A stretch of 39,195 nt of DNA from a virus (Duplodnaviria; Caudoviricetes): the IMG/VR virus record IMGVR_UViG_3300032257_000048, positions 1-39,195 of that record; one strand, 5' to 3'. Below the pieces are notes generated by a model. That model saw only the letters and a list, made by a program, of their open reading frames with translations, was not told where the DNA came from and made no database searches. The stretch's first letter is position 1. Every line of letters starts with the position of its first letter. A program made the position numbers and the translations under genes. Of the stretch, positions 1 through 37,224 are shown in pieces.

Positions 1-56
1 TGACCCGTTGTCTTCATTTAATAGCTTGTTCATGGCGGTTTCAAATTCATCAACTT
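1..56. repeat. 56-nt terminal direct repeat, left copy (circular assembly overlap)
   Basis: 1-56 is identical to 39140-39195. Confidence 0.97.
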
Positions 57-126
57 TTCTTTGATGCTCATGCGCAATGCAAAACAAACCATATGCTTTC
101 ATATAAGTATCATTACTAATATTCAT
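1..126 (-). CDS. 5' part of a 74-aa hypothetical protein spanning the contig junction (126->1, then 39139->39041)
   Basis: ATG at 126 abuts the stop of ORF 127-396; translation MNISNDTYMKAYGLF...NEDNGS continues in frame as HLSDLIYSY...SLGQP*. Confidence 0.85.
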   Translation of the reverse strand, partial: MNISNDTYMKAYGLFCIAHEHQRKVDEFETAMNKLLNEDNGS

Positions 127-396
127 TCACTCCCCCTCTTGGCTTATACGCTGTTTTAATTTTATTGATAACAAATCCTTAAGAGGCTTAATTCCTGTTT
201 GATACACTTTCTCATGCAGGCCTTCATTGCTCTGAATCTCTGCATCGCTCAACATTCTGGCTAAATCAGCAGCAACTTTAATAATTCCGTCCCTGTATCG
301 CTTCTCTAACTCCACTAACTGGTCTTTGTGTGCGCTCCTTAACCCGATCACTATGGCATTAGTCCACTTATCAATGTCACTCTTATGGTCACTCAT
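127..396 (-). CDS. hypothetical early protein
   Basis: ORF track; ATGA coupling with upstream gene, GGAGG RBS. Confidence 0.75.
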   Translation of the reverse strand: MSDHKSDIDKWTNAIVIGLRSAHKDQLVELEKRYRDGIIKVAADLARMLSDAEIQSNEGLHEKVYQTGIKPLKDLLSIKLKQRISQEGE

Positions 397-683
397 ACAA
401 CCTCCTTGAATGCTTCACGGATAATTTGTCTTCCATCTGTGCCTTTAATATTCATTAACAAATCTTTCTCTAACTCTTGGAACCGGGCTTTGTGTTTATC
501 CTGCTCTTCTTTACGAGCCTGATTAATAAGCGTTACTGACATTTGTTTGCTTATGCTGGTATCTGCTAAGATGTATTTAATATTGTCTCCACCCCATGCG
601 TTAGGGTCATTTGAATAATATTTATATTTAGGGTCATTGGTTTTATAAGCATATATAACCTCTGGCATATCGTTGTCTTTCAT
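393..683 (-). CDS. hypothetical early protein
   Basis: ORF track; ATGA coupling. Confidence 0.75.
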   Translation of the reverse strand: MKDNDMPEVIYAYKTNDPKYKYYSNDPNAWGGDNIKYILADTSISKQMSVTLINQARKEEQDKHKARFQELEKDLLMNIKGTDGRQIIREAFKEVV

Positions 684-871
684 ACCTTACCCCTTAATAA
701 CTGTTCTAAATTTGGTTTAGTTTTTGAGTTAACATGAAGTTCAGCACCAAATAGACCAGATACAGGCTTTATACATGAGACATAGCCATCACGAATAGTG
801 CTTGCTATAACAATTACTGGGTTTTTATATTCAAGCAAATACTCTTTAACTTCTGATTCATTTTTAAGCAT
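680..871 (-). CDS. hypothetical early protein
   Basis: ORF track; tiles with neighbours. Confidence 0.65.
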   Translation of the reverse strand: MLKNESEVKEYLLEYKNPVIVIASTIRDGYVSCIKPVSGLFGAELHVNSKTKPNLEQLLRGKV

Positions 872-1208
872 ATTTATTCCTCAATACCTTGTTAATACAT
901 TTGATAATAGCTGTGCGACGGTCTTCTGAATAGTCAGTAACACCACCTTGTGTTTCAGCCATCCATTGCTCGCTCGAAGGCAGCCAATCAACATCTAGCT
1001 TCATCTCATCAATAACAAGATCACGGTCGTTGCTGTCATGTGCTGGGTTGAACTCAATCTGTCTATTGCTTTTATCAAAATATAAACGCCTTAATCCCTT
1101 AATCGTAACACCAGCTAATTCAAGCCCCATATACTCAGCACAAGCTAAATTAAATTCCTTCGCCGCTTCATCTGTCATGTTATTCATTAGGTTTGTACTC
1201 GATTTCAT
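864..1208 (-). CDS. hypothetical protein, weakly NinX/ABA-sandwich-like (true start probably nearer 1187)
   Basis: LNxACAEYMG...FNPAHD..D..LVI pattern; tiles in operon. Confidence 0.55.
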   Translation of the reverse strand: MKSSTNLMNNMTDEAAKEFNLACAEYMGLELAGVTIKGLRRLYFDKSNRQIEFNPAHDSNDRDLVIDEMKLDVDWLPSSEQWMAETQGGVTDYSEDRRTAIIKCINKVLRNKYA

Positions 1209-1452
1209 CTAAATCCATGCCTATTTCATTTAATATTTCTTGATCTGTTTCTGCAAAGTCATCCCATTCATAAAGCTCGCTTAAATTTTTTAATTGCCAC
1301 TTCCAGCCATCTTCACAAAGCACTCTAATAACAACTCGCTCAATCATTGTGTCAATATCAAAAATAACTCCCAGCCCAGCACCAACCCCATCTCGCACAG
1401 AAGAGAATCTTATTTTTACTGGTCTATATAGCTTTGGTAATCTCATACCCAC
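1180..1452 (-). CDS. hypothetical early protein
   Basis: ORF track; tiles in operon. Confidence 0.65.
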   Translation of the reverse strand: MGMRLPKLYRPVKIRFSSVRDGVGAGLGVIFDIDTMIERVVIRVLCEDGWKWQLKNLSELYEWDDFAETDQEILNEIGMDLDEIEYKPNE

Positions 1453-1574
1453 CCCTCAATAACCCATAAATAATACGGCTGAAATATCTTAAATAACAAC
1501 CAACATAAACCTAGTGTCAGGATAGCGGCTATATAGGGGACTAATTTACAGTACAGTTTGTTATAAGCTTTCAT
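1443..1574 (-). CDS. 43-aa predicted membrane peptide (below ORF-track cutoff)
   Basis: own translation MKAYNKLYCKLVPYIAAILTLGLCWLLFKIFQPYYLWVIEGWV; GAGGA RBS; fills gap. Confidence 0.6.
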   Translation of the reverse strand: MKAYNKLYCKLVPYIAAILTLGLCWLLFKIFQPYYLWVIEGWV

Positions 1575-1576
1575 TA

Positions 1577-1732
1577 CTAGTCCTCGATCTCCATTACTTC
1601 AGCATCATAAAAACACTCATACTCTTCTTCAGCAGATTCAAGAGCCAGTTTAATCGCCTCTTTTTCGGATTCAGCTTCAACGCTTACAGTGTCCGAATAT
1701 TTAAATGTTAATTTAATTTGGTAATAACTCAT
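1577..1732 (-). CDS. 51-aa acidic hypothetical protein (below cutoff)
   Basis: own translation MSYYQIKLTFKYSDTVSVEAESEKEAIKLA...; TGATG coupling with upstream gene. Confidence 0.7.
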   Translation of the reverse strand: MSYYQIKLTFKYSDTVSVEAESEKEAIKLALESAEEEYECFYDAEVMEIED

Positions 1733-1995
1733 CACTTATCCTTTGCTATTCTTTTTTCGTAGTAATTGCAGTTTTTACACTCATACATATCAGTCCACTT
1801 TTCACCGAAAGGCTGCATTTCATGATCGCCTTCTTGACAATAAACGTCATAACTAAAGCTAATACTAGTTGTGAACTTAAACCCCTTTCCGCAACTACAG
1901 TCCTGCATATAATCCCCGTCTTCTTCGTATCCATAGCCATCATCATGATTTATTTCTTGTTCTTCACCGCAATACGGGCATGTAACATCAGTCAT
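1732..1995 (-). CDS. Cys-rich zinc-ribbon-like protein
   Basis: CPYC, CxC, C-x4-H and CKNC motifs; AAGGA RBS. Confidence 0.75.
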   Translation of the reverse strand: MTDVTCPYCGEEQEINHDDGYGYEEDGDYMQDCSCGKGFKFTTSISFSYDVYCQEGDHEMQPFGEKWTDMYECKNCNYYEKRIAKDK

Positions 1996-2029
1996 TTACT
2001 TATCCTTTACTATTGCTGTTAAACAGTCT

Positions 2030-2206
2030 CTAACCATTAATATTTAAAGTTTTTATTACATCTTTCCAGATAATTTTCTCAAGCTCGAATAAGTCTTTAT
2101 CCAGATCTTCTGTGGATCCATCTATGCAATGCTTAATTCTTAACCCAATAATGGGGTCACTAATAGCTTTGTATAATTCACTCTTTCTTTTTTCACTGAT
2201 CTTCAT
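2030..2206 (-). CDS. 58-aa hypothetical protein (below cutoff)
   Basis: own translation MKISEKRKSELYKAISDPII...; fills gap. Confidence 0.65.
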   Translation of the reverse strand: MKISEKRKSELYKAISDPIIGLRIKHCIDGSTEDLDKDLFELEKIIWKDVIKTLNING

Positions 2207-2208
2207 TG

Positions 2209-2446
2209 TTATCTATCCGGTTATTGGGGTTATAGGTAAGCCATTAACATAAAGACAAACTACACAAAGCATTGCCAGAACGTCTACACTTGAAAAAATA
2301 TAATTCCTGTCATGGATTGCGCTTCTAATTAGCTGGCTAAATAACACAGGCACTGTTAATAAAATAATAAATACGCTAAATAATTGAGCTATTAATTCCA
2401 TCCTCTATTCCTCTCTATTATTATCTATCCGGTTATTGGGGTTATA
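2209..2446. repeat. 26-nt direct repeat pair (2209-2234, 2421-2446)
   Basis: ttatctatccggttattggggttata occurs twice, exactly. Confidence 0.92.
2213..2401 (-). CDS. 62-aa two-TM membrane protein
   Basis: two hydrophobic stretches; GAGG-rich RBS. Confidence 0.65.
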   Translation of the reverse strand: MELIAQLFSVFIILLTVPVLFSQLIRSAIHDRNYIFSSVDVLAMLCVVCLYVNGLPITPITG

Positions 2447-4181
2447 AAATAGACAAAGCTTTATTAATCATTTTCTTAATTTTTAATACATCGGCTTTGC
2501 TAACCCAATCAAAATCAGCTATAGGAATATCAAATTCAAAAGGTGCGTCTTTATCCATGTGATCGACAACTATGCCAATCGTAAATCCATTTTCAAGTTC
2601 GTCATTAATAAACGTTTTCTTTGTTTCTTCTGTATATATTTCCATGCTTATTCCTCAAATAGTTGGTCTTGAATCTGTAACCCTATGTTACGCAGTAAGA
2701 GATATGTCTCAGGTTCTTTAATCCTATACGTTAAAGCGATCTCTGTCAAGACCTTAACCCTCTTTTCTTGTAATTCTCTTGATCCATGTAGAGTAATCTC
2801 TGTGAAATCACCCGCTTCTCTCTCTAACATCTTATCCCAAATATCCATCACATTTCCTCTGAATAAACATAGTCTTTAGCTTCTCGTACAGACTTAAAGT
2901 CTGCAATAAAAGCCCCTTCATTGAATACCTTACACATTTTAAGGCATCTATCTTGATTGTAGTACACGTTAATAATCTCATACTTATGAAGTACAATATA
3001 GCCAGTACATAGCTTCTTCCAGTACCTGTCCAGGTGTTTCACTTCTGCTTAAGAAACTCATTAATACCATGAGTTAGCTTAACATGAGTAAGTGTAAGGT
3101 ACTCTTGGCAGTCTTGGCAAAACAAATGGTAATCAACTCTAGTAAAGTCTTCGTCTTCCTTCTCTGTTGTATGTTCTTTTTCAACTGCTAAGGCACTAAA
3201 CGGGTGTTTACATTTAAAGAATCTCATTCTATTGCCTCTATGAATTTCTTAGCTATGTAATCATAACTCCATGTAACACAAGCTGCATCTATTGCCTCCG
3301 TTCTTGTTGGGTATTTAAATACTTCGATATTATTTTTGAGGCAATTAACATAAATAACCTCTGGTTCTGGCTTTATGCGGTAACTCTCCAAATTATCTGA
3401 AAAATCAATGTTAGTTGCTTTTACCCATGAGCCATCTCCAAGATAGTATTCAATATTTTTACCTTCTGCAAACGCCTGAATAATCGGTAATAACTGTTTT
3501 ACTCTGTCTCTGTTCATTTTCTCTGCTCCAATAATTCAAACATATCCTGGTTCCACTGTATAAATTCATGCACTTCTTGCTCTTTGGAGCATACACGAGG
3601 GCAAGTATAAGCCTCCCCTTGACAGAAGTACTCCATCTCTGACTCTGTACTGTCTCCTATGCTGTACTTCTCTACATAACACCCAAGGTGACAACAATCG
3701 TCACACTCCGATGGATCTACCTCAATATCTTTAAATATCCTGATTGTATTAGCTATGAACATTAGTATCCCCTATTATGTCTATTATATCTTCGTCAAGT
3801 TCAAGCCAATCATCTGAGTACAATAGTTCACAAAGTTCCATATCTCTTTGCTCTGCTCCTTCAGTGTCATCATAAGGTACAGAGTTAAAGTCCAGTACAA
3901 TCTCCTCAGAGAAGTTAAGTCCTGCATTCATGTTAGTCATCACGTTCTCCTAGTTCAATAGGTGTTATATCTGTTAGTGAATCTATACTCTCTTGAGATA
4001 AGAAAGCATAACCTGTTAATATATCCCCTTTCTTATCATCCCTTGAAGGCGAGGTAGTAAAAGGGTAGTGTTTACCTGAATTAGATACCATAACAAATGT
4101 ATCCTGGTTGCACTGATCAGTGCAAGTGTACCCTGAGACTGCTACTTCAAATAAATCTAGTTGTTCCACAATCAACTCCAC
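2442..4181 (-). other. run of eight tightly coupled small hypothetical ORFs (2442-2645, 2648-2851, 2848-3042, 3039-3227, 3224-3517, 3514-3762, 3749-3943, 3933-4181)
   Basis: ORF track; abutting or overlapping starts and stops, SD-like motifs; no recognisable families. Confidence 0.7.
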
Positions 4182-4399
4182 TTTCTTAATAATATGCCAG
4201 TTGTGGCTTTATTGTACTTATCTTCATCATACCCTATATAGAGATTGAAAGTAGCTGATATTCTACCTATACAGAATGCTAATAAACAATAAAAATATAA
4301 TTCATAATCCATAATCAACTCCTATGCTAATAAGCTATGCTAATAAAATTAAGGCTATCACGCCTAATACAAAGATGCAATACATGAATGTATCTTCTC

Positions 4400-4606
4400 T
4401 CACTTTATCACCTCTAATTTGTTAAGTCTCTCTAGTCTCTCTAGTCTTTTCTCTAGATCAGAGACATATTTAAGGGTTGCATCATGTAATCCCTTATTAG
4501 CATTAACGAATGTAGTCATATCCTGGACAAATACACCTATGCCTTGTAATGACTTCTTAATGGCTTCTATATCTTGTAAGACCTTAGTCTCTGTTGCTTC
4601 ATTCAT
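4400..4606 (-). CDS. coiled-coil hypothetical protein (start revised to 4606)
   Basis: GGAG RBS before MNEATE; LEKRLERLERL heptads. Confidence 0.65.
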   Translation of the reverse strand: MNEATETKVLQDIEAIKKSLQGIGVFVQDMTTFVNANKGLHDATLKYVSDLEKRLERLERLNKLEVIK

Positions 4607-4693
4607 CTTAATCTCCATTAGGCCATAAGACTGCACAAATAAGTAAAACAAGGCCTATATAGACCACGGTTAGTACTGCAATGGCTAGATAGC

Positions 4694-4978
4694 TCATGAT
4701 TCACTCTCCTGATCAGTATGGTAGTAAACACCTATTAAATTACGTGCTTCTAGTTCAGAATCTAAAGGGCCGCCTATTGTATTAATCCCTGCGGGTGTTA
4801 TCTCCATTAGAGCGTATATAGTGCTATTCATAAAATGATCTTTGGTAATAAAGTACTTATTTTGTATTAACCCAGTAACGTATGATTCATTGAAGAAACT
4901 ATCAGCACTGAACCAATTATTAATATATTTCTCATCTTTAATAACTTGCCTTGTTCTTTGTATTATTTCAGATCTCAT
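4694..4978 (-). CDS. hypothetical early protein
   Basis: ORF track; downstream of promoter at 5056-5083. Confidence 0.7.
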   Translation of the reverse strand: MRSEIIQRTRQVIKDEKYINNWFSADSFFNESYVTGLIQNKYFITKDHFMNSTIYALMEITPAGINTIGGPLDSELEARNLIGVYYHTDQESES

Positions 4979-5055
4979 AATCTTATCTCTTTGTTAGTTA
5001 ATGTAAGGCGTTGCATTATACCCTTAAACGTATTATTTCAATTTATACACTTATA

Positions 5056-5083
5056 AGTATAGCCAGTCTTAATGTATTGTCAA
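5056..5083 (-). promoter_or_regulatory. sigma70-type early promoter
   Basis: TTGACA-16nt-TATACT on minus strand in an intergenic gap. Confidence 0.7.
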
Positions 5084-5245
5084 GACTTATAAATTAAATA
5101 TTATCGTAGCTAAAACAATAGCTATGAACCATGCTTTAAGCTCTGCTTTAAGAGTATTAGGATCATCTTTGGTTAGCCACTCAGGTAACCATTTAATTGC
5201 TGTAATTATATTCATGTATCACCTAATCAATGTTGTGTTGTATTA

Positions 5246-5287
5246 AGTATAGCTAGTTTGTACACCACGTCTAGTACCGTTCGTCGG
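5246..5287 (-). promoter_or_regulatory. sigma70-type early promoter with upstream GACGAACGGTA motif
   Basis: TAGACG-16nt-TATACT; shares GCTATACTTA with the 5056 promoter; precedes a small ORF starting at 5215. Confidence 0.55.
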
Positions 5288-5520
5288 GTACTTAAAGTAT
5301 ATCTGGTATTAGCTTGTACCGAGAGCTGAAATATGATATTATTATCTTTAGTAATTAGTAAGATGTTACTTCTATCATACATCTATACATACAAGTTTAC
5401 TTATCCTAACTTATCTTACTTCTACTTTCCATACTAACTTCATACTATCTTATCATACTTTATAACATAATATCAATGATACAGAAGCTTACACTTATAT
5501 TCTCTACTTGAGAATGATTC

Positions 5521-5754
5521 TTATTTAGGTTCTGACTGTATATCTTGGTTAATACTTGATTCAGAGTCCAAACAAGCTGATAAGCATAACCCAACAGTTT
5601 CATAATTACTCTCTATGGTTTTGTTTATTGTTTGTGAGTTAAGTTTATGCAGTTCCTTATAATGCTCAACTTCTACACTAAGTCTGTTATTCTCTTCATG
5701 TAGATCAATTATCTGATACGCTAGATCTATAATACTCAGTTCATTGTGTTTCAT
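5521..5754 (-). CDS. hypothetical early protein (coiled-coil)
   Basis: ORF track. Confidence 0.65.
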   Translation of the reverse strand: MKHNELSIIDLAYQIIDLHEENNRLSVEVEHYKELHKLNSQTINKTIESNYETVGLCLSACLDSESSINQDIQSEPK

Positions 5755-5755
5755 A

Positions 5756-5941
5756 TCAATACCCCATTTCTACATAAAGTTGTTTAAGTGATGTTATTGG
5801 CACTAGATCATGCCCTCTAACCCTACCTTCTGCTGTGTGCTTAACGAATGGTATACATAGATAAAGGCTATCTGCTGAACATACCTTAAAGCCGTGTGAC
5901 TCTGCATGTCTGGTTAGTAAGTCTTGAGTTGGTTGTCTCAT
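5756..5941 (-). CDS. first gene of the early arm, hypothetical (start revised to 5941)
   Basis: MRQPTQDLL; lies downstream of the -10 box at 5993-5998. Confidence 0.65.
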   Translation of the reverse strand: MRQPTQDLLTRHAESHGFKVCSADSLYLCIPFVKHTAEGRVRGHDLVPITSLKQLYVEMGY

Positions 5942-5992
5942 AATCTTATGCCTTCTGTAAGTTGAGTTGTTAGAATAAATAAACATAACTAA

Positions 5993-6031
5993 ATTATACA
6001 TACATGTAATTGTATTGTAATACCGTTCATC
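5993..6031 (-). promoter_or_regulatory. early promoter with upstream GATGAACGGTA motif
   Basis: TTACAA-16nt-TATAAT on minus strand. Confidence 0.55.
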
Positions 6032-6132
6032 AGATTACATAAAATTAAACGTACATAAATGTACTATATATATGTATCTTCCCCCGTTAATTACATTACA
6101 TGATAGATGTGGGCAATAGTATTAAGTATGCC

Positions 6133-6166
6133 TTAATGGTCTTACATGTTAATGGTCTTAATGGTC
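6133..6166. repeat. three copies of TTAATGGTC
   Basis: 6133-6141, 6149-6157, 6158-6166. Confidence 0.85.
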
Positions 6167-6227
6167 ACATACATACACTCTCTTCCCTCTAATTCAGACG
6201 TTGTGTAATGCACTACTTTATTTAACC

Positions 6228-6242
6228 TGATAATAATTATCA
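6228..6242. promoter_or_regulatory. Fur box (7-1-7 inverted repeat)
   Basis: TGATAAT-A-ATTATCA matches the 15-bp Fur consensus TGATAAT-N-ATTATCA exactly. Confidence 0.75.
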
Positions 6243-6246
6243 TCTC

Positions 6247-6286
6247 TGTGGATAACCTGTGGATAAGTATACTAACCTGTGGATAA
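6247..6286 (-). promoter_or_regulatory. three perfect DnaA boxes (TTATCCACA)
   Basis: TGTGGATAA at 6247-6255, 6258-6266, 6278-6286. Confidence 0.85.
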
Positions 6287-6467
6287 CTTTATAAAGATCC
6301 CCTAGGAAGACCCCCCACCCCCTGTGGTATACTGGTGTATGTGGGATATGACGCTTCAAAACTCGAAAGGTAGATTCTGGTTTTTAAGCTCTTATAGCCC
6401 CTACAAACTCGGGAGGTGAAATTGGATAATTGATTTGAAAATTAATGAAAATAATTCCGTAATTCGC

Positions 6468-6496
6468 TTGACAAGCGTTATTCAGTGTGCTAATAT
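6468..6496 (+). promoter_or_regulatory. sigma70-type promoter of the morphogenesis arm
   Basis: TTGACA-17nt-TAATAT with TGn extension and AT-rich upstream tract; -35 sits inside palindrome CGCTTG-A-CAAGCG. Confidence 0.75.
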
Positions 6497-6603
6497 CGGG
6501 GGGTATTTAACTTAACATGATAAAAAATGGCACCTCTAGTTAAGTACTTGATAATTAAGACATTTCTATAGCAGGGGATATTCTCCTATAACTGAGAAAT
6601 ACT

Positions 6604-6825
6604 ATGCAAGAAGCTACAGCGTTAGAGACAGCTAAATTAAAGATCATGTCATTGAACTCAGAGAACAATGCCTTGAGACAAAGACTTGAATACAGACAAG
6701 AACAAGTCCAACAGTTACAGTCAGGGATCTATAGTGAAGGGTTGAAGGACGGTAAACTACAAGCAGAAGTAGATGCTTACAAGTCTGTCCTGTTCGAGGT
6801 ACTGGATCGTAATGGAAGATACTAA
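6604..6825 (+). CDS. coiled-coil hypothetical protein
   Basis: ORF track; first + arm gene. Confidence 0.7.
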   Translation: MQEATALETAKLKIMSLNSENNALRQRLEYRQEQVQQLQSGIYSEGLKDGKLQAEVDAYKSVLFEVLDRNGRY

Positions 6826-7267
6826 GATACAAAGAACAGCTTCAGGGAGTATAGCAGGTGTAGGTGGAAGACCTCCAGGCGCTAAGAATAAGACTACCTT
6901 AGTAAAAGAAGCTATTAAAGAAGGGATGGAAGATACCCTTATGCAGTACGGTATAGATGTACTGAAAGCTACTGCACAAGCTGCTGTAGGAACTAAGCTT
7001 AAAGACAAAGATGGTGAGTACTTGTACGACGAACATAATAACCATGTGTACATCAAAGGAGACAATGCTTGCAAGAAGATGCTACTAGATAGGATGGTTC
7101 CTATAGCCGATGTATCAGGTAACAACAAGTCAGGTACTACTCAAGTAGTTATCAATGTCCAGGGTATGGAAGCCAAGGTAGACCTTATGGACGCTAGCGT
7201 CATAGAGCAAAGCTCTGATGGTGAGTTCCACGAAGTGCAAGAAGAGGTTACAGATGGTGATGATTAA
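6812..7267 (+). CDS. terS: probable terminase small subunit (start revised to 6812)
   Basis: N-terminal GGRPPGAKNKTT motif typical of TerS-like proteins; upstream of TerL. Confidence 0.65.
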   Translation: MEDTKIQRTASGSIAGVGGRPPGAKNKTTLVKEAIKEGMEDTLMQYGIDVLKATAQAAVGTKLKDKDGEYLYDEHNNHVYIKGDNACKKMLLDRMVPIADVSGNNKSGTTQVVINVQGMEAKVDLMDASVIEQSSDGEFHEVQEEVTDGDD

Positions 7268-7442
7268 TATCAATGGAGTAGAAATGACTCCACTAGAGGC
7301 CAAAGAGATATACAAAGAGTTAGATCTCTTGTTTGGCAAGCCTATGGTTACACTTGCACCAACTAAACAGCCTAAGGATTTGTTAAACCCCTGCGGAATT
7401 ACTTGGACCCCATCAAGCCTAGATAGAGTATTTAAAGATTAA
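7218..7442 (+). CDS. hypothetical protein (start probably 7254-7260)
   Basis: ORF track; GAGG RBS before MVMININ. Confidence 0.55.
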   Translation: MVSSTKCKKRLQMVMININGVEMTPLEAKEIYKELDLLFGKPMVTLAPTKQPKDLLNPCGITWTPSSLDRVFKD

Positions 7443-7693
7443 TGAAAATTATGCTACTCATTTACACATTATGTGGGAGTGAGCAGTGCATTACAACTGT
7501 ACAAGATACAACAGTTAGGTGTTTTTATACCCTTCACAAGTAGTACAGTTAATGAAAGAGACACAGAACAAGAAAGTGCAGTCAGTAAAGATTCCACTAG
7601 AAATAATACACAAAGGTCAATGCACGTAAGCGTAAGCTGAGTCAAGCCTAACTAACTGGGCATAGCCCTTAACCGCATCAGGAGATCCTATAA

Positions 7694-8011
7694 ATGCGAT
7701 ATGAACTACGTAACCGTTACTACGGCCACAGAATGATTGCTCCGAATGAAAAAGCTAAGTTACGCTTAGTCGACAATGGAGTTAAAGATAAAAGAGATAA
7801 TCTTCCTGTTTGGGCAGTTTCTAAAGAGCTTCCTGATGAAGTCCCAGAACCTAAGTTCAGTAAAGAAGAACTCTTAGCTATGATTGCAGTTCTTGAGGAA
7901 GCTGATGCAACAGAACCAGAACGTGAGAAGATAATTGAAGCAGTTAATAAACCTAAAGCAGCTCCAAGAAAGAAAGCTAAGAAATTAGGTAATAAAGGGA
8001 GTTCTATTTAA
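7694..8011 (+). CDS. hypothetical protein with basic C-terminal tail
   Basis: AGGAG RBS; KPKAAPRKKAKK tail. Confidence 0.75.
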   Translation: MRYELRNRYYGHRMIAPNEKAKLRLVDNGVKDKRDNLPVWAVSKELPDEVPEPKFSKEELLAMIAVLEEADATEPEREKIIEAVNKPKAAPRKKAKKLGNKGSSI

Positions 8012-8122
8012 TGAACATCTACGATAAAGGCGCCCCAACTACGAAACCTTTACAAGTTAATGATGTAATTGACTACGCTGTACGGGTACTTAAAGAGAAT
8101 ATAGAGAAGATAAAGGTTTCTA

Positions 8123-8335
8123 ATGACTGATATATTTGATATACCTCGTCTTAAAAGAGAGCGAGAAGAACGTCTTAAAGAGATCTTGCGTAATGGTGAG
8201 ACTTCAGATGATGATTCACAACGTCCTCAAGGCTCTGATACTCCTAACCCTGTTCCTGATAAATCTAAAGAGCAAGGAGAAGCTGAGTTAGAGGCTTTAC
8301 GTCAGAAGCAACGAGATCGTGCTAAGAAGAAATGA
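8123..8335 (+). CDS. hypothetical charged protein
   Basis: ORF track; ATGA coupling to next gene. Confidence 0.65.
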   Translation: MTDIFDIPRLKREREERLKEILRNGETSDDDSQRPQGSDTPNPVPDKSKEQGEAELEALRQKQRDRAKKK

Positions 8336-9165
8336 CTGTCCCTACTACTCATACAGGGAACACTAGTACCTGGGATACAGGTAACGCTAGAATAAATGTT
8401 ACTAAAGGTAATATAGGCACTATTGACTACAAACATGAAGTAGCCCTAGGTATTATACAAGGTTCATCTCTGTGGAATAAGTTCGGATACAACGCAGATA
8501 TAGATACAGCTACAAGTCCAGAGATAATAGCCTCCTTTGGTGGCTCTTTTAGCCCAGATGTAACAGCTACAACAGTGGACATTGTATCAAGTGATGCAGC
8601 AGATGACTCAGGTGGTACAGGTTGTAATTCAGTTGTAGTGTACGGGCTTGATGCTAATTGGGATGCTCTTGTAGAGGTTGTAACACTCGATGGTGTTACT
8701 CCAGTTACAACTACTGGATCGTTCATAGGTATTAATCGAGTAGCTATGTTCTTATGTGGATCAGGTAGAGTAAATGCAGGGACAATAACAGCTACAGCTA
8801 CCACAGGCGGTAGAACAATGGCAGTACTGCCTTTAGGTGAGGGTGTTACACAACAATGCTTGTTCTATGTACCTCAAAATAATACATTTGTTATGGAGTA
8901 CTTGTTACTAGGCGCTGCACGTAATGCGTCCAACAACCCTTATGTTACATTCAAGGTATTTGTGTTCTCAAGTGTAAGTAATGGAATACAAGAGGTTTTT
9001 AGAAAGACTTTAGATACTGAAGTTCAGGTTTATGCAGATATAGAACCTAACCTCCCTTTCCCTATAACAGAGAAGACTGTAATTTGGGTAGAAGCTAGTA
9101 CAGACCAGAACAATACAGAAGTTACATGCAGATTTAGTGGAATCTTGGTAGAAGATGAAGCATGA
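8332..9165 (+). CDS. putative virion structural protein (Thr/Gly/Val-rich, beta-rich)
   Basis: 277 aa; NKFGYNADID motif; composition typical of virion accessory proteins. Confidence 0.55.
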   Translation: MTVPTTHTGNTSTWDTGNARINVTKGNIGTIDYKHEVALGIIQGSSLWNKFGYNADIDTATSPEIIASFGGSFSPDVTATTVDIVSSDAADDSGGTGCNSVVVYGLDANWDALVEVVTLDGVTPVTTTGSFIGINRVAMFLCGSGRVNAGTITATATTGGRTMAVLPLGEGVTQQCLFYVPQNNTFVMEYLLLGAARNASNNPYVTFKVFVFSSVSNGIQEVFRKTLDTEVQVYADIEPNLPFPITEKTVIWVEASTDQNNTEVTCRFSGILVEDEA

Positions 9166-9307
9166 TACAGAAACTTACTACAAAAGGTTATAAAATAAAG
9201 CAAAGTAAGGATGTTTTCATCGTAAAGAAAGGATTTTTTAAAATAGGTGAAGCTAGTACTTATCTGGCAGCGCAGGCTATAGCCCTTAACCATTACTTAA
9301 GTAAACA

Positions 9308-10618
9308 ATGATCCTCGACCTCGACTTTGAGCTCCATGAGAAACAATTAAATATATTTAAACACCCTGCTAGGTTCAAGGTAACAGCCGCAGGTAGACGT
9401 GGAGGTAAATCCTTCTTATCTGCTGTTATGCTCTTAATTGAAGCATTAAAAGATACTAATAAGTTCGGTCAAAGTCTCCATAGAGCAGAGGTTTTCTATG
9501 TAGCCCCTACCTTTAACCAGGGCAAGGATATTATGTGGAACCTCTTGATAGAATTAGGTGGCATGGAGGCTCAAGGTGGGGTTATACGATCGGTACGACA
9601 AAACGAAGGGGTGTTGCGTCTTATTAATGGGCGTACTATTAAGATTAAAGGATCGGATAGGCCTGATACTCTTCGTGGTATTGGTTTATCTTATGTCGTA
9701 ATGGACGAATACGCAGACATGAAGCCTGAAGTATGGGATTTAATCATACGACCTGCTCTGTCTGACTATGAAGGAGAGGCAATGTTCATCGGGACACCTG
9801 ATGGCAAGAACCACTTCTACGATTTATGGTGCTTCGCTGGAGAAATGCAAGCTAAAGGTCACCCTGAATGGGCTGCTTTTCACTTCAACTCCCTTGATAA
9901 CCCAAAGATTAAGCCCTCAGAGATTGAGGCAGCTCGTAACTCTATGTCAGCAGCAGCTTTTAGACAAGAGTACGAGGCTAGTTTTTCAGCCGGAGGCGGT
10001 ACGTCCTTTAAAGAGGAACATCTCCGTTATGCTGACTTACCACCTGAACAGGGTAACATCTACATAGCAGTAGATTTGGCTGGTTTCGGGACTGGAAATG
10101 GAATGATAAAGTCAGCTATCAAAAAGTTGGATGAACATGCTATCAGCATTGTCGAAGTTTCACCCTCTGGCTGGTTTGTACACGAGATTATACACGGAAG
10201 ATGGGATGTTAGAGAAACAGCCCTTCGTATAATCAAGGCTTCTAAGGATTATAGCCCTATTGCAGTAGGTATAGAGCGGGGAATCGCTTACAATGCCTGT
10301 CTTCCTTACCTGGAAGATGAAATGAAGAGAATGAACAGATTTCCTGTTATTACCCCTTTAACTCATGGTGGTAAAAACAAAACAAACAGGATTGTATGGG
10401 CTTTACAAGGCAGGGCAGAACGAGGAAGGCTTATCTTGAAGAAAGATGCTCCTTGGATAAGACCTTTTCTTGATCAGTGGTTAGATTTCCCTAATCCTAT
10501 GGCGCATGACGATCTACTTGACTCTCTGGCTTATATTGACCAGATAAGTGAAACAGCTTACAACACATGTATTGAGATAGAAGAGTTCGAGCCTCTTGAT
10601 CAGTTCACAGGAATATAA
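9308..10618 (+). CDS. terL: terminase large subunit
   Basis: Walker A AGRRGGKS, Walker B VVMDE, IGTP, FRQEY, nuclease AVDLA and HDDLLD. Confidence 0.97.
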   Translation: MILDLDFELHEKQLNIFKHPARFKVTAAGRRGGKSFLSAVMLLIEALKDTNKFGQSLHRAEVFYVAPTFNQGKDIMWNLLIELGGMEAQGGVIRSVRQNEGVLRLINGRTIKIKGSDRPDTLRGIGLSYVVMDEYADMKPEVWDLIIRPALSDYEGEAMFIGTPDGKNHFYDLWCFAGEMQAKGHPEWAAFHFNSLDNPKIKPSEIEAARNSMSAAAFRQEYEASFSAGGGTSFKEEHLRYADLPPEQGNIYIAVDLAGFGTGNGMIKSAIKKLDEHAISIVEVSPSGWFVHEIIHGRWDVRETALRIIKASKDYSPIAVGIERGIAYNACLPYLEDEMKRMNRFPVITPLTHGGKNKTNRIVWALQGRAERGRLILKKDAPWIRPFLDQWLDFPNPMAHDDLLDSLAYIDQISETAYNTCIEIEEFEPLDQFTGI

Positions 10619-24636: not shown

Positions 24637-24963
24637 ATGAAGTTACCAGAGAAAGTTAAAGTAGGATGTTACGATGTACGGATAGTACCTATGCATGGAA
24701 TGGAAGGCTTTGCTCATGGTTGCCTAGGGCACTTCAGTTCAGCTGAGATGGTAATAAGGATAAGTATTGATCTCCCTGAAATACAAGTTATAAACACTCT
24801 TCTTCATGAGGTTCTCCATTCTTGTTATTATGTAGCGGGGCTTGAAGACACTGATGAGGAAGAGAGAATAATAACTTGCTTAGCTAACCAGTATCTACAA
24901 GTAATAATAGATAACCCTGCCTATAATAAGGCTATAAACAGTTGCTCAAAGAAGGAGAAGTAA
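24637..24963 (+). CDS. HExxH metallopeptidase-like protein (start revised to 24637)
   Basis: NTLLHEVLH...EE motif. Confidence 0.7.
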   Translation: MKLPEKVKVGCYDVRIVPMHGMEGFAHGCLGHFSSAEMVIRISIDLPEIQVINTLLHEVLHSCYYVAGLEDTDEEERIITCLANQYLQVIIDNPAYNKAINSCSKKEK

Positions 24964-25429
24964 ACCCGTACTTCTTTTCAGCAAAGGATCTGACAATAGT
25001 GGCTGCTAATTTACAAGAATACTGCCCTAAGAATACTTGCTTATTATCTATTGTTATGTAAGATCTCCACTTACTATCCCTTGCTGCATAAGATACGCCT
25101 CTTTGTTTACTAGTAGAGTTACATTGAAGTTTAGTATTCATCATATTTTGTTTCTGTGTAACATCTCTTAGGTTACAGATACGGTTATCATTAGGTATCC
25201 CATTGATATGATCAATGTTATTTTTAGGGAAGTTACCATAAGTATATAGCCATACTAACCTATGTACTAAATACTTTTCACCATCGATGCTTGTTTCTAT
25301 GTAACCAAGTGCCGTTTTACTGCCTAGAGCGTCTCCACGTTTAGCCCTAGCCTTATCTACTTTCCATGTAAATATGCCTGTAGATTTGTTATAAGTTACA
25401 AGTTCTTTTAATCGCAGTTGAGTAATCAT
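24932..25429 (-). CDS. HNH homing endonuclease with AP2-like C-terminal domain
   Basis: HRLVWLY..G, IDHING...DNRICNLR, GVSY, VFLGQY. Confidence 0.92.
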   Translation of the reverse strand: MITQLRLKELVTYNKSTGIFTWKVDKARAKRGDALGSKTALGYIETSIDGEKYLVHRLVWLYTYGNFPKNNIDHINGIPNDNRICNLRDVTQKQNMMNTKLQCNSTSKQRGVSYAARDSKWRSYITIDNKQVFLGQYSCKLAATIVRSFAEKKYGFTSPSLSNCL

Positions 25430-34165: not shown

Positions 34166-34362
34166 TTGTTGTATTCTATTTCTTGTATATGATATTCACC
34201 TGTTAACCTCTCATAAAAACAACGTACTGTACAATCTCCGTCACTGGCATAATCAATACCTATAAAAACTTCTCCTTCTTTAGGTATATAATTTGAGGGG
34301 AAAGGACTAATCTTTACCCATTTAGGATCGAACCATTCATTGCTCAATGTACATCTCCCCAA
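34150..34362 (-). CDS. hypothetical protein
   Basis: ORF track. Confidence 0.55.
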   Translation of the reverse strand: MGRCTLSNEWFDPKWVKISPFPSNYIPKEGEVFIGIDYASDGDCTVRCFYERLTGEYHIQEIEYNKLDKQ

Positions 34363-35834
34363 CTCTCCCCAACTTGAAACGAAGCATCCAGTGGAACTTT
34401 TAGTTTAAAGAACTCACCTGACTTAACAATACTTTGAACACACAGCTTACCAACTTGTTCAGCATCTTCTGGGTTGCATTCAATTATATACTCATCGTGA
34501 TAGTATACAACACGTTTGTACTCAATACAAGCATCTTTTAACATCTTCCTTAAGAAAGCCCAACTCATGTCCATAATCTTAGCACCTGTTGACTGAAACA
34601 GAGTGTTAGTAATACTATGCCTTGATCTAGTATAACGCTTACTGCGATCAATTGTCAAGATATATTTCTTTGAATTGTTCTCCCAAGCTCTTGCTACTGC
34701 TTCATCAACTTCTTTTAAAGCCCAGTTAGCTTCCCAGTACCTATCGAAGTACTCAGAACCTACTTCAGTACTAACACCTAGAGCTGAACAAAATGTAGCT
34801 AAACCACAGAAGTACTGTAAAGCATATCCAGGTGTCTTAGCATCTTTACGTTCACACTCCCATAACTTAGCATTCTCTTCATGTTCATCATACTCATCAG
34901 AGAGTATTCTCTTAGCGTACTCACCTCCGTCATATCTAGCTGTATAGTGGCCTTTAACTCTAGCTTCTAACCCTGCTGCATCATACCCTACAAAAACCTT
35001 GTTAGGAGAGGCTATGAATAGACCACGCATCTCGGAGCCGTAAGGTGTACCTACTCTAGGGATATTAGCTACTGTTTTATGTCTCTGTCTTCCTGTATTA
35101 GTTAAACCTGAACTTCCAGCAGGTAATCTACCATCTATTGCAAGTCTTGGGTTATTAAGCCACCCTTGTATGTTACTTCTTCTATGTCTGTACATAACCC
35201 ACAGAATAACATCTTTAATGAAAGGTACTTCAGAAGATAACTTAACTAAACCTGGACATATTTCACCTTTGTCATGCAGCTTAGGTGAAGTCTTAATCTT
35301 CTTACCTTTCTCTCTTATTTCCTTGCCGTTCGAGTCCTTCTTGAAGTTCCATATAGTTGCTTTCCAACCAAGGGATAACAACCAATCTTTTAGTTGTTGT
35401 TGATTACCTAATGTCATAGCTATATCATGGATAATACACTCATGGTGAGGCAATGGGTGCCAATGTCCATTCTTCAACCCTCCCCAATAACCTGTACCGT
35501 TGTCTACTCTTTTACCTCCTTTGAGTTTTGGGGTACGTGTCAAATAATTAACCTCATCGAACCACTTCTCACACATAGCACTTGGAGTCCCATCCTTCTT
35601 GAACTGTAACTTAGGAGGAGTCATAGCTTTTAGTTCAGACTTCAAAGGAGGACGAGAAGGCAGTTGAGGTTCTACTTCAAGCTCAATTAACTCCATCTTT
35701 TGAGTTAACTCTTGTATTAATTCTTCAGCTCTAACAGAGTCAAAACAGATACCTGTCCTTTCTTGTTCACACATACCGTCATAAGTTATGTGAGCTAGTT
35801 TAAGATACAAAGGGAGGTTAATCACTTGCACCAC
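34344..35834 (-). CDS. family A DNA polymerase, polymerase domain only (likely start GTG 35825)
   Basis: TNTGR, NIPR, motif A DAAGLEAR, motif B R...K...Y...Y, motif C HDE. Confidence 0.95.
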   Translation of the reverse strand: MVQVINLPLYLKLAHITYDGMCEQERTGICFDSVRAEELIQELTQKMELIELEVEPQLPSRPPLKSELKAMTPPKLQFKKDGTPSAMCEKWFDEVNYLTRTPKLKGGKRVDNGTGYWGGLKNGHWHPLPHHECIIHDIAMTLGNQQQLKDWLLSLGWKATIWNFKKDSNGKEIREKGKKIKTSPKLHDKGEICPGLVKLSSEVPFIKDVILWVMYRHRRSNIQGWLNNPRLAIDGRLPAGSSGLTNTGRQRHKTVANIPRVGTPYGSEMRGLFIASPNKVFVGYDAAGLEARVKGHYTARYDGGEYAKRILSDEYDEHEENAKLWECERKDAKTPGYALQYFCGLATFCSALGVSTEVGSEYFDRYWEANWALKEVDEAVARAWENNSKKYILTIDRSKRYTRSRHSITNTLFQSTGAKIMDMSWAFLRKMLKDACIEYKRVVYYHDEYIIECNPEDAEQVGKLCVQSIVKSGEFFKLKVPLDASFQVGESWGDVH

Positions 35835-36355
35835 TTGCCATTAGGTGCGATAATAGTATGCTTAGTGTACCTTCTAAAAGCATGGTAATAACAGACCACA
35901 CCTTCTGGAGTAGTACCATCTGCATCATCTTGCAACTTATCTAACAAAGATTGAATAGTTACAGGAGAAAGCTCCCCTTGATAAAGGATAGGGACTACTG
36001 AGCAACACTCAGGTCTGCTCGGGTTATCAGGGTTCCATCTGAAAGTATTGAACAAGAATAAAGTCTTTTCATTCAGGCCATGTGGGTTTTTCTGAATACC
36101 TGGGCCAGCCCATTCACCGTAGTGGTAGCCATCACCTAGAGTAAGCAAACCTTTGGTATTATCTTTTACCCATTGAGCAAACCCGAAGTTATCATCTTCA
36201 GGTGTAATGAATCTCTTACGTGACTGTACACCAACTATCTGATTATCTTGAATAACAATACAAGAGTTAGTGCCATCAATCTTCTCTGTAATAGTAACCT
36301 TGAATGGGTTATCTCTACCAATCTTAGGCCATGCTTTAAATTCTATTTCACTCAT
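35822..36355 (-). CDS. RNA ligase-like nucleotidyltransferase (Rnl2-type, minimal)
   Basis: motif I EKIDGTN, SRKR, GEW.G.GIQ, LFLF, EGVV. Confidence 0.85.
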   Translation of the reverse strand: MSEIEFKAWPKIGRDNPFKVTITEKIDGTNSCIVIQDNQIVGVQSRKRFITPEDDNFGFAQWVKDNTKGLLTLGDGYHYGEWAGPGIQKNPHGLNEKTLFLFNTFRWNPDNPSRPECCSVVPILYQGELSPVTIQSLLDKLQDDADGTTPEGVVCYYHAFRRYTKHTIIAPNGKWCK

Positions 36356-36364
36356 ATCTCTATC

Positions 36365-36568
36365 CTAGCTGTAATTGTACTCTGATTTAATATTAGGTGC
36401 AACACCATGTACTTTAACTGTTACTGAGTTACCGTACCCTGCTTCTTTGTACAACTTAAAACACAAATCCCAGAACTCCTCTCCGTTACTTATAGCTCCA
36501 TCAGGGTCTTTAAGCTCAAGTGAAGGGAACTCTTCTTTTATAACAATGTAACCTGTTTCTGTCATCAT
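36365..36568 (-). CDS. hypothetical protein
   Basis: GGAG RBS. Confidence 0.65.
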   Translation of the reverse strand: MMTETGYIVIKEEFPSLELKDPDGAISNGEEFWDLCFKLYKEAGYGNSVTVKVHGVAPNIKSEYNYS

Positions 36569-36753
36569 ATCTCTATCTCCGCTTCGTTAACAATTCTACA
36601 AAGTTCTTTTATTAGTAGCTTCACGTCTTCAAGTGTCAGCATTGCAGGGTCTTCATACAATGAGTCGAACTCTATCATGTCATACTTTATAAGATCTGTA
36701 TCTACTACTAAATCACTTACTCTGATAATCAATTCCAGCCTCCTTTTGACGAA

Positions 36754-37224
36754 TCAGATAACAATATCTGCTTCTTTAAGTAATGCTTCTAGCACGGCGC
36801 CAGTAATTCTCACGTCTTCACGACAACGGTGGACGTACTCTTCTGTACTAAGACCTTCCCAGTTTTCTATTGTTGGCTTCTTTATACCTAGTTTTTCTCC
36901 CCACTTACCTAGCCCATGAAACCCCCTATCAGGATTAAGCTCTCTTGATAGAACCATAGTGTCAATTATTTGACAAGGTACTGAGTTAATTACGTCAGGT
37001 TGGATGTAATACTCCAGACCAGCCAACTTATTGTAGACAGGAAAATCATAACCGATAACATTATGACCAACAAGAGTGTAACCTGAACTAAGGACTTTAA
37101 TAACACTTTTAAAATCATACATAGTTCTCCAATTATCTGTCCCTAGTTCATTAAAACAAGTGCAATGCATTTTATCAGGATTGAGCCCATTAGCTTCCAT
37201 GTCAAAGACTATGATTTTACTCAC
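36754..37224 (-). CDS. stand-alone 3'-5' proofreading exonuclease domain of DNA polymerase
   Basis: ExoI FDMEANGL, ExoII GHNVIGYD, DTMVLSR, HGLGKWG, ExoIII RCREDV. Confidence 0.92.
   Translation of the reverse strand: MSKIIVFDMEANGLNPDKMHCTCFNELGTDNWRTMYDFKSVIKVLSSGYTLVGHNVIGYDFPVYNKLAGLEYYIQPDVINSVPCQIIDTMVLSRELNPDRGFHGLGKWGEKLGIKKPTIENWEGLSTEEYVHRCREDVRITGAVLEALLKEADIVI

What the first reader, a model, noticed from the sequence alone, without database searches (positions are those of the whole stretch)
6000..6600. Candidate new system: a host-factor landing pad at the probable physical genome end
Seen: the only large gene-free region holds, in order, early promoter, short repeats, Fur box, 4 nt later a DnaA triplet, a CCCCCCACCCCC tract (6311-6322), a repeated AAACTCGrrAGGT (near 6359 and 6405) and the late promoter. 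Established: two-arm podoviruses of the SIO1/cobavirus type have termini upstream of the terminase genes. Inference: the virion DNA ends map here, and abundant host DNA-binding proteins are recruited to the end to shield it from exonucleases, help DNA entry, or report iron and replication status. This is my best candidate for an undescribed system.
Basis: inference. Interest (0 to 1): 0.85.

Follow-up and report, generated by a model that had tools for sequence, protein, structure and literature searches.

The report
Host-protein docking strip in phage ends
A gene-free stretch of an uncultured phage carries a perfect match to the site of the bacterial iron regulator Fur and three perfect matches to the site of the replication starter DnaA, inside what is predicted to be the roughly 180-base repeat at both ends of its DNA, so the phage likely loads host proteins onto its DNA ends, possibly to guard them.

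Summary
Real: a perfect Fur 15-mer (6228-6242; 1 of 20,000 shuffles) and the genome's only three perfect DnaA boxes (6247-6286; 0 of 20,000). The AAACTCG pair is chance-level. The termini were not mapped for this phage. In relatives, 5 of 28 contig ends fall on one homologous base. Together with the mapped ends of LUZ24 and tf, this predicts a direct terminal repeat at about 6167-6347. It contains Fur, DnaA and the C tract; both promoters lie outside. In 57 non-redundant relatives the same slot holds helically phased perfect DnaA boxes in 19 (0 in either flank), sigma-54 sites in 9, LexA sites in 4 and Fur in 0; 34 hold none of the motifs tested. Only the closest relative keeps DnaA plus a Fur-like site. 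The cultured T7-like phages Kp7 and A7 also have DnaA-filled terminal repeats. So this is an optional, swappable host-protein docking strip, not a fixed Fur-DnaA system, an origin or a cobavirus hallmark. End-guarding is my best guess (about 0.33), although RecBCD is known to evict protein arrays. Precedents are the T5 injection-stop DnaA boxes and CtrA sites in phage terminal repeats. This scan has noted the same class on other DNA.

The parts
5993..6021 (-). Candidate early sigma-70 promoter (10 of 12), outside the predicted repeat; drives the small early genes (first gene probably starts near 5940)
   Evidence: this class of match is at chance level, so weak
6132..6166 (+). Three TTAATGGTC short repeats just outside the predicted repeat on the early side, placed like the short repeats next to T7's left repeat; one copy kept in L203
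6167..6347 (.). Predicted direct terminal repeat, about 180 bp (edges uncertain by about 5 nt); would be present at both ends of the virion DNA
   Evidence: inferred: homologous contig-end pile-up in relatives; tract offset of 27 nt in LUZ24 and tf; mapped repeats of 121-186 bp
6168..6190 (+). Conserved pyrimidine-rich ACAC(T/A)C motif marking the late-side edge of the repeat in the family
6228..6242 (.). Perfect Fur-box palindrome (7-1-7); L203 has a 2-mismatch version with the same flanks
6247..6286 (-). Three perfect DnaA boxes (6247, 6258, 6278; spacings 11 and 20, in helical phase), the only perfect ones in the genome
   Evidence: L203's genome likewise has exactly three, all in this slot
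6311..6322 (+). C tract (G tract on the early strand), the family's landmark about 27 nt inside the early end; polarity as in LUZ24/tf, opposite to ICBM1 and the marine relatives
6359..6417 (+). AAACTCGrrAGGT pair: rejected as chance
   Evidence: 604 of 1,000 shuffles contain such a pair; not kept as a pair in L203
6468..6496 (+). Late sigma-70 promoter with extended -10, outside the predicted repeat
   Evidence: conserved in L203 and marine relatives
6518..6532 (+). Second, weak copy of the Fur-like element with the same CCTCT flank, just downstream of the late promoter; also in L203
   Evidence: (family D1)
6773..7267 (+). Probable small terminase subunit (position, GRP motif; ortholog in L203); no Pfam or PHROG hit
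   Evidence: inference
9308..10618 (+). Large terminase subunit, used to collect relatives
   Evidence: (phrog_2, E 2.6e-42)

Best explanation
The stretch 6167-6347 is predicted to be the phage's short direct terminal repeat, and its interior is an optional slot of host-protein binding motifs (here one Fur box and three phased DnaA boxes) that would load abundant host proteins onto both DNA ends as soon as they enter the cell, most likely to hinder host machines that load at or scan inward from free DNA ends. Shown: the motifs, their excess over chance, their phasing, their confinement to this slot in relatives and the swapping of their identity between relatives. Inferred: the end positions (about 0.8) and binding by host DnaA and Fur (about 0.85). 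Least certain: the purpose (about 0.35-0.4 given the first two). Candidate targets are SbcCD/Mre11-Rad50, Lamassu-type sensors and RecBCD/AddAB; the coat would need no phage protein synthesis.
For: Position: 5 of 28 distinct relative contigs ending within 400 nt left of the tract start within 2 nt of one homologous base (P about 1e-4 to 1e-3 under uniform ends). 5 of 12 right-side ends lie within 50 nt of the tract pattern, two at the same base (P 0.013). The GGGGTGG offset of 27 nt in LUZ24 and tf independently gives 6347. Slot: perfect DnaA boxes in 19 of 57 relatives (46 boxes) vs 0 of 57 in each of two flanking windows; sigma-54 sites 9 vs 0 and 1; LexA sites 4 vs 0 and 1. 66 of 102 box pairs lie within 1 nt of a multiple of 11, none at half-turn distances, and 68 of 83 boxes share one orientation. 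The order of the Fur-like site and the DnaA triplet is swapped between the window and L203, so there is no fixed register to a promoter or cut site. Neither motif overlaps the two good promoters. The cultured phages Kp7 (238-bp repeat) and A7 (177-bp repeat) have DnaA-filled repeats. Fur next to DnaA recurs in gene-free gaps of 4 unrelated viral contigs. End-sensing systems are established threats (passages of PMC13685816 and PMC12663957).
Against: No reads map this phage's ends; one contig runs unbroken across 2606-9418. The sites lie 60-120 bp inside the predicted ends, leaving the tip bare, while the Lamassu structure holds only a 20-bp duplex (PMC12663957). RecBCD pushes through tandem arrays of tight binders (10.1101/142224, abstract). 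34 of 57 relatives, including L202/L206 (portal 65% identical), have none of the tested motifs, and the mapped repeats of ICBM1, ICBM2, RIO-1, VpV262 and LUZ24 lack DnaA boxes. Overall contig-edge density is no higher left than right of the junction motif, and the homologous base was chosen after seeing the data. An 11-bp tandem unit could give part of the phasing by slippage. The host is unknown, so its Fur and DnaA specificities are assumed.
Confidence: 0.33

Rival explanations
1. Packaging or concatemer aid: bound host proteins bend the repeat or stall RNA polymerase or a replication fork so that terminase cuts and the repeat is duplicated, as IHF helps lambda terminase (recalled).
For: The boxes are strongly oriented (68 of 83). 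IHF-type sites lie on the late side in 22 of 57 relatives vs 0 on the early side. A TTGACA..TATGCTA element points at the tract in 15 of 57 slots. The marine early edge shares the 9-mer TGTTACAGT that lies at T7 position 164, next to its repeat.
Against: The distance from boxes to either edge is not fixed (window about 80 and 60 nt; L203 about 45 and 135 nt). The window has no perfect IHF-type match on the late flank of the repeat apart from one downstream of the late promoter. Many relatives package without any tested motif.
Confidence: 0.2
2. Decoy or sensor: replicated copies titrate DnaA (stopping host initiation) and Fur (derepressing iron uptake), or the proteins tune phage promoters to host state, like CtrA sites in phage terminal repeats.
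For: CtrA sites cluster in terminal repeats or gaps of alphaproteobacterial phages and were tested by EMSA and reporters (PMC9437464, passages). Multicopy Fur titration is textbook (recalled). A weak 9-of-12 leftward promoter overlaps the Fur box, a second Fur-like copy sits just after the late promoter in the window and L203, and 3 relatives have good Fur boxes in the promoter-bearing flanks.
Against: Titration does not need an end location, yet perfect DnaA boxes occur in 0 of 57 flanking windows, and concatemers would carry only one repeat per genome. The main Fur box is more than 200 bp from both good promoters.
Confidence: 0.22
3. Entry aid as proposed for T5: membrane-associated DnaA catches the leading end and anchors or ratchets it during ejection.
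For: T5-like phages have eight conserved DnaA boxes at the injection-stop region (10.1101/866236, in silico). Here the boxes would be within the first 120 bp to enter.
Against: Fur, sigma-54 and LexA replace DnaA in relatives. No A1/A2-like genes or long repeat were seen. A 40-bp patch is a poor ratchet for 39 kb.
Confidence: 0.1
4. Host-primed early origin: DnaA opens the adjacent AT-rich DNA before the phage primase-helicase is made.
For: In the window an 80% AT stretch lies immediately left of the first box, in the oriC-like orientation, and the GC-skew minimum is here.
Against: No AT-rich or trio-like flank is conserved in L203 or in the 19 box-bearing relatives. The phage encodes its own primase-helicase and polymerase. 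The skew follows the gene-strand switch.
Confidence: 0.05
5. Tolerated filler: the repeat interior is free to vary, and the motifs are slippage products or picked-up host DNA of no benefit.
For: 34 of 57 slots lack the tested motifs; the 11-bp unit can expand by slippage; mapped cobavirus repeats lack the boxes.
Against: Perfect consensus sites of several unrelated host proteins recur in one slot; phase is kept across unique spacers; the feature appears independently in T7-like phages.
Confidence: 0.1

Closest known systems
DnaA boxes of the T5 injection-stop (iss) region (Davison, bioRxiv 10.1101/866236; in silico; still called poorly understood in PMC13250531)
   Same: Conserved host DnaA boxes in the untranslated part of a terminal repeat of a lytic phage that encodes its own replication proteins
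   Different: T5 has about eight boxes in 3-bp-spaced pairs within inverted repeats, kilobases from the tip of a 10-kb repeat, tied to two-step injection. Here three same-strand boxes and a Fur box lie 60-120 bp from the predicted ends of a 180-bp repeat, and relatives swap or lack them.
CtrA sites in terminal repeats or gaps of alphaproteobacterial phages (PMC9437464)
   Same: Host regulator sites concentrated in terminal repeats of lytic phages; binding shown for CtrA
   Different: CtrA sites regulate phage promoters; here the sites overlap neither good promoter. That study found no positional bias for DnaA sites in its phage set.
Short direct terminal repeats of Zobellviridae (ICBM1, ICBM2, RIO-1, VpV262) and LUZ24/tf-like phages
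   Same: Two-arm genome, ORF-free divergent gap, G/C tract near the early end, 121-186 bp repeats (PMC6775973)
   Different: No DnaA boxes in the five repeats shown; TerL and portal of this phage do not match these phages
DnaA-filled terminal repeats of the T7-like phages Kp7 and VB_Ship_A7
   Same: Four or more perfect boxes plus near-matches inside 177-238 bp repeats
   Different: Different family with its own RNA polymerase; I saw records only, with no annotation of the boxes and no paper describing them

Membership tests
Cobavirinae / Zobellviridae | Two arms with opposite transcription | tested here: met
Cobavirinae / Zobellviridae | Short direct terminal repeats in the ORF-free gap | tested here: inconclusive
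   inferred from relatives; own reads give no ends
Cobavirinae / Zobellviridae | G+C-rich tract near the early end of the repeat | tested here: met
   tract at 6311-6322; polarity like LUZ24/tf, opposite to ICBM1
Cobavirinae / Zobellviridae | Homologous terminase, portal and capsid proteins | tested here: not met
   vs ICBM1 only primase-helicase (28%) and polymerase (24%) match; TerL 0 of 5 and portal 0 of 5 other cultured phages (no positive control); capsid closest to A-4L (29%), weak to RIO-1
Cobavirinae / Zobellviridae | Cobalamin-dependent ribonucleotide reductase (cobaviruses) | tested here: not met
   no hit among 52 ORFs scanned with PHROGs
T5 injection-stop region | DnaA boxes in an untranslated part of a terminal repeat | tested here: inconclusive
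   boxes shown; repeat predicted only
T5 injection-stop region | Box pairs 3 bp apart within large inverted repeats, long repeat, A1/A2 genes | tested here: not met
   same-strand boxes spaced 11 and 20; no A1/A2 hit
DnaA-dependent origin (oriC type; features recalled) | Conserved AT-rich unwinding element or trios beside the proximal box | tested here: not met
   AT-rich only in the window; absent in L203 and 19 relatives
DnaA-dependent origin (oriC type; features recalled) | DnaA-ATP unwinding and replication activity | not testable with these tools
   needs biochemistry
Fur operator | 7-1-7 consensus palindrome (consensus recalled) | tested here: met
   0 mismatches; 1 of 20,000 shuffles
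Fur operator | Overlaps a promoter that it represses | tested here: inconclusive
   more than 200 bp from both good promoters; overlaps only a 9-of-12 chance-level site
Fur operator | Iron-dependent Fur binding | not testable with these tools
   host unknown; needs EMSA

The most novel reading that the evidence does not exclude
Short terminal repeats of several podovirus lineages act as borrowed telomeres: a modular strip, freely refilled with sites for whichever abundant host DNA-binding protein is at hand (DnaA, Fur, sigma-54 polymerase, LexA), that caps incoming linear DNA against end-sensing nucleases and immunity before any phage gene is expressed. The T5 injection-stop boxes would be one case of the same principle.
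Probability: 0.25. Interest if true: 0.85.

Novelty: new variant of a known kind. Interest (0 to 1): 0.55.

Why it matters
How lytic phages with plain blunt ends survive end-sensing nucleases in the first minutes, and what the DnaA boxes of T5's injection-stop region do, are open questions. A compact, non-coding, naturally optional array inside a 180-bp repeat, also present in small cultured T7-like phages, makes both testable with a few base changes. That was not practical for T5's essential cis site. If the arrays prove to be decoys or sensors instead, they show a protein-free way for a lytic phage to act on host replication and iron control.

Tried and rejected
DNA search of 5700-7300 against cultured phages: no match. 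Portal vs cultured phages: no match. TerL hits were all distant, 40% or less over about half the length, so there is no cultured close relative with mapped ends. Sequencing runs are assembled contigs only and show no ends; run X3 holds only a small share. TerL in bacterial genomes gave 3 short contigs in unrelated MAG bins, which I did not take as host evidence. The probable small terminase found only the window's own record among metagenome contigs. DnaA triplets near viral contig ends (10 of 118 within 100 nt vs 2.5 expected) were rejected as evidence of termini because many breaks fall inside the arrays. Three right-side ends within 8 nt is not significant (P 0.18). An alternative repeat from the C tract to the G run at 6498-6503 was rejected because that G run is not kept in L203. 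6 of 10 Fur+DnaA pattern hits lie in or against coding regions and were treated as chance. CRP, FNR, matS, CtrA, PhoB, ArgR and MraZ motifs showed no slot enrichment. A broader Fur pattern still gave 0 of 57 slots. No earlier notes exist on this genome. Literature searches that found no description of DnaA or Fur arrays in short podovirus repeats: (open-licence papers and preprints only). No homology-search, folding or complex jobs were run, because the feature is non-coding.

Full report
Setting. The window is a whole 39,195-bp virus record classed as circular/DTR, found in microbial-mat metagenomes. It has two arms: structural genes on + from 6604 (TerL 9308, portal 10621, capsid 15913) and replication plus small early genes on - (primase-helicase, split polymerase, nucleases). 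The arms diverge across 6002-6603, the largest ORF-free gap. The host is unknown. The phage resembles Zobellviridae and LUZ24-like phages in layout, but only its primase-helicase and polymerase match ICBM1. TerL and portal match none of five other cultured two-arm phages (no positive control), and the capsid is closest to cyanopodoviruses.

Observation. The Fur 15-mer (6228-6242) is perfect, and three perfect same-strand DnaA boxes follow at 6247, 6258 and 6278, the only perfect ones in the genome. In 20,000 dinucleotide shuffles of the gap a perfect Fur box arose once, three boxes never, and the C/G tract 39 times; a pair like AAACTCGrrAGGT arose in 604 of 1,000. The consensus motifs used are recalled. 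The late promoter at 6468-6496 is conserved in relatives; the early one is a 10-of-12 match in a scan that is at chance level overall.

Closest relatives. L203 (portal 66% identical) keeps a DnaA triplet (its genome's only three perfect boxes), a 2-mismatch Fur-like palindrome with the same flanks, the C tract with its downstream motif, and the late promoter. The triplet lies left of the Fur-like site instead of right. At 2 mismatches that genome has three such Fur hits, so position, not score, supports the homology. L202/L206 (65%) have a G tract at the homologous place and neither motif.

Where the ends are. The runs hold only contigs, and one spans 2606-9418 unbroken, so the ends are inferred. 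Cultured two-arm phages have 121-186 bp repeats with a G/C tract near the early end (PMC6775973, passages read, supplements not seen; its repeat alignment could refine this). In LUZ24 and tf, GGGGTGG starts at base 27 of the early strand; the same offset here gives 6347. Among relatives, 28 distinct contigs end within 400 nt left of the tract (three duplicates dropped). Five start within 2 nt of one homologous base, just before a conserved ACAC(T/A)C motif (P about 1e-4 for a 400-nt window, 1e-3 for 230 nt; base chosen after inspection). On the other side, 12 of 120 loci end within the fetched flank, 5 within 50 nt of the pattern (P 0.013) and two at the same base. This gives repeats of about 150-215 bp in the marine clade, with the DnaA arrays inside. 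Against this, gross edge density left and right of the junction motif does not differ (88 of 120 loci with a tract). Mapped to the window, the repeat is about 6167-6347. Fur, DnaA and the tract are inside; the early promoter, the TTAATGGTC repeats, the AAACTCG pair and the late promoter are outside.

What fills the slot. I located the tract with enough flank in 96 loci (22 TerL/portal loci dropped for no tract or short flank) and reduced them to 57 non-redundant. In the 200 bp left of the tract, perfect DnaA boxes occur in 19 of 57 (46 boxes) vs 0 and 0 in the late and early control windows. Sigma-54 motifs occur in 9 vs 0 and 1, LexA in 4 vs 0 and 1, NrdR in 1, and Fur in 0. IHF-type motifs occur on the late side in 22. 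23 of 57 carry at least one tested motif and 34 none; three have good Fur boxes in the flanks instead. Boxes are phased (66 of 102 pairs within 1 nt of a multiple of 11; none at 13-17, 24-28, 35-39 or 45-50) and oriented (68 of 83), with no conserved unwinding element. Across IMG/VR, Fur-plus-DnaA patterns gave 10 hits. Four lie in gene-free gaps of contigs with no match to the ten window proteins tested (L407, L408, L415, L416), and six look like chance. A short-query search of cultured phages hit T5-like phages and several T7-like phages. For two of these, Kp7 and A7, the record ends are 238- and 177-bp repeats packed with boxes.

Mechanism. A role must explain confinement to the repeat, interchangeable proteins, a loose register to the edges, no overlap with good promoters, and dispensability. 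An early protein coat that hinders machines working inward from free ends fits best, and end-sensing SbcCD and Lamassu are documented threats (PMC13685816 and PMC12663957, passages). But the tips stay bare for about 60 bp, and RecBCD evicts tandem arrays (10.1101/142224, abstract), so I give it 0.33. Rivals: decoy or sensor 0.22, packaging aid 0.2, T5-like entry anchor 0.1, filler 0.1, origin 0.05.

Prior knowledge. DnaA boxes in T5's terminal repeat are described in silico (10.1101/866236; first sixth of the text and passages read) and cited as unresolved in 2026 (PMC13250531, one passage). CtrA sites cluster in terminal repeats of alphaproteobacterial phages with binding shown, while DnaA sites showed no bias in that set (PMC9437464, passages). 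PMC11512268 shows only an Ori-Finder prediction (passage). Seven searches found no paper on DnaA or Fur arrays in short podovirus repeats. Unreviewed notes of this scan report the same class in other phages. They prompted my slot survey and the Kp7, RIO-1 and VpV262 checks, but they are not counted as support.

Verdict. A real, selected-looking, optional host-protein docking strip in a predicted terminal repeat; a new variant of a known but unexplained kind. Interest 0.55.

Noticed in passing
L417, L515 right ends; T7 record L403 position 164: The marine clade's predicted early end falls at a TGTTAC(A/T)GT motif; the same 9-mer lies at T7 position 164, next to its terminal repeat (the concatemer-junction pause; role recalled). 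It may be a shared terminase or pause signal.
   Followed up: partly
L014, L022, L032, L037, L072, 200-290 bp left of the G tract: parS-like 16-mers (2 mismatches to a recalled consensus) on the early side of the slot in one clade, with LexA-like sites inside the slot.
   Followed up: partly
marine relatives, 60-260 bp right of the tract: IHF-type motif in 22 of 57, absent on the early side; reminiscent of host-assisted packaging.
   Followed up: partly
15 of 57 slots, last 90 bp before the tract: Conserved TTGACA..TATGCTA element pointing at the tract, often with GTGAC..GTCAC inverted repeats, mainly in slots lacking DnaA boxes.
   Followed up: partly
window 6518-6532; L203 7387: Second degenerate Fur-like palindrome with a CCTCT flank just after the late promoter in both phages; could be a Fur site or a site for another, possibly phage, protein.
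   Followed up: partly
window 5056-5104: Strong leftward promoter match (11 of 12) in a 248-bp gap, overlapped by a rightward 10-of-12 match.
   Followed up: no
window 34344-37224 (-): DNA polymerase is split: exonuclease part 36754-37224 and polymerase part 34344-35834, with an RNA-ligase-like ORF and small ORFs between them.
   Followed up: no
window 24932-25429 (-): A 165-aa ORF on the opposite strand inside the late arm.
   Followed up: no
runs X1-X3 laid on 6244-6292: Other low-depth contigs in the same mats carry DnaA arrays followed by a G tract or by a Fur-like motif, and an L203-like phage co-occurs.
   Followed up: no
one search hits: DnaA-box clusters in non-coding DNA of gokushoviruses, Lactococcus 949-like phages and Pseudoalteromonas phage H101.
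   Followed up: no
window 1-3500: Deeper contigs of related phages in the same runs share short stretches between early ORFs and skip individual genes, suggesting cassette-like exchange of early genes.
   Followed up: no
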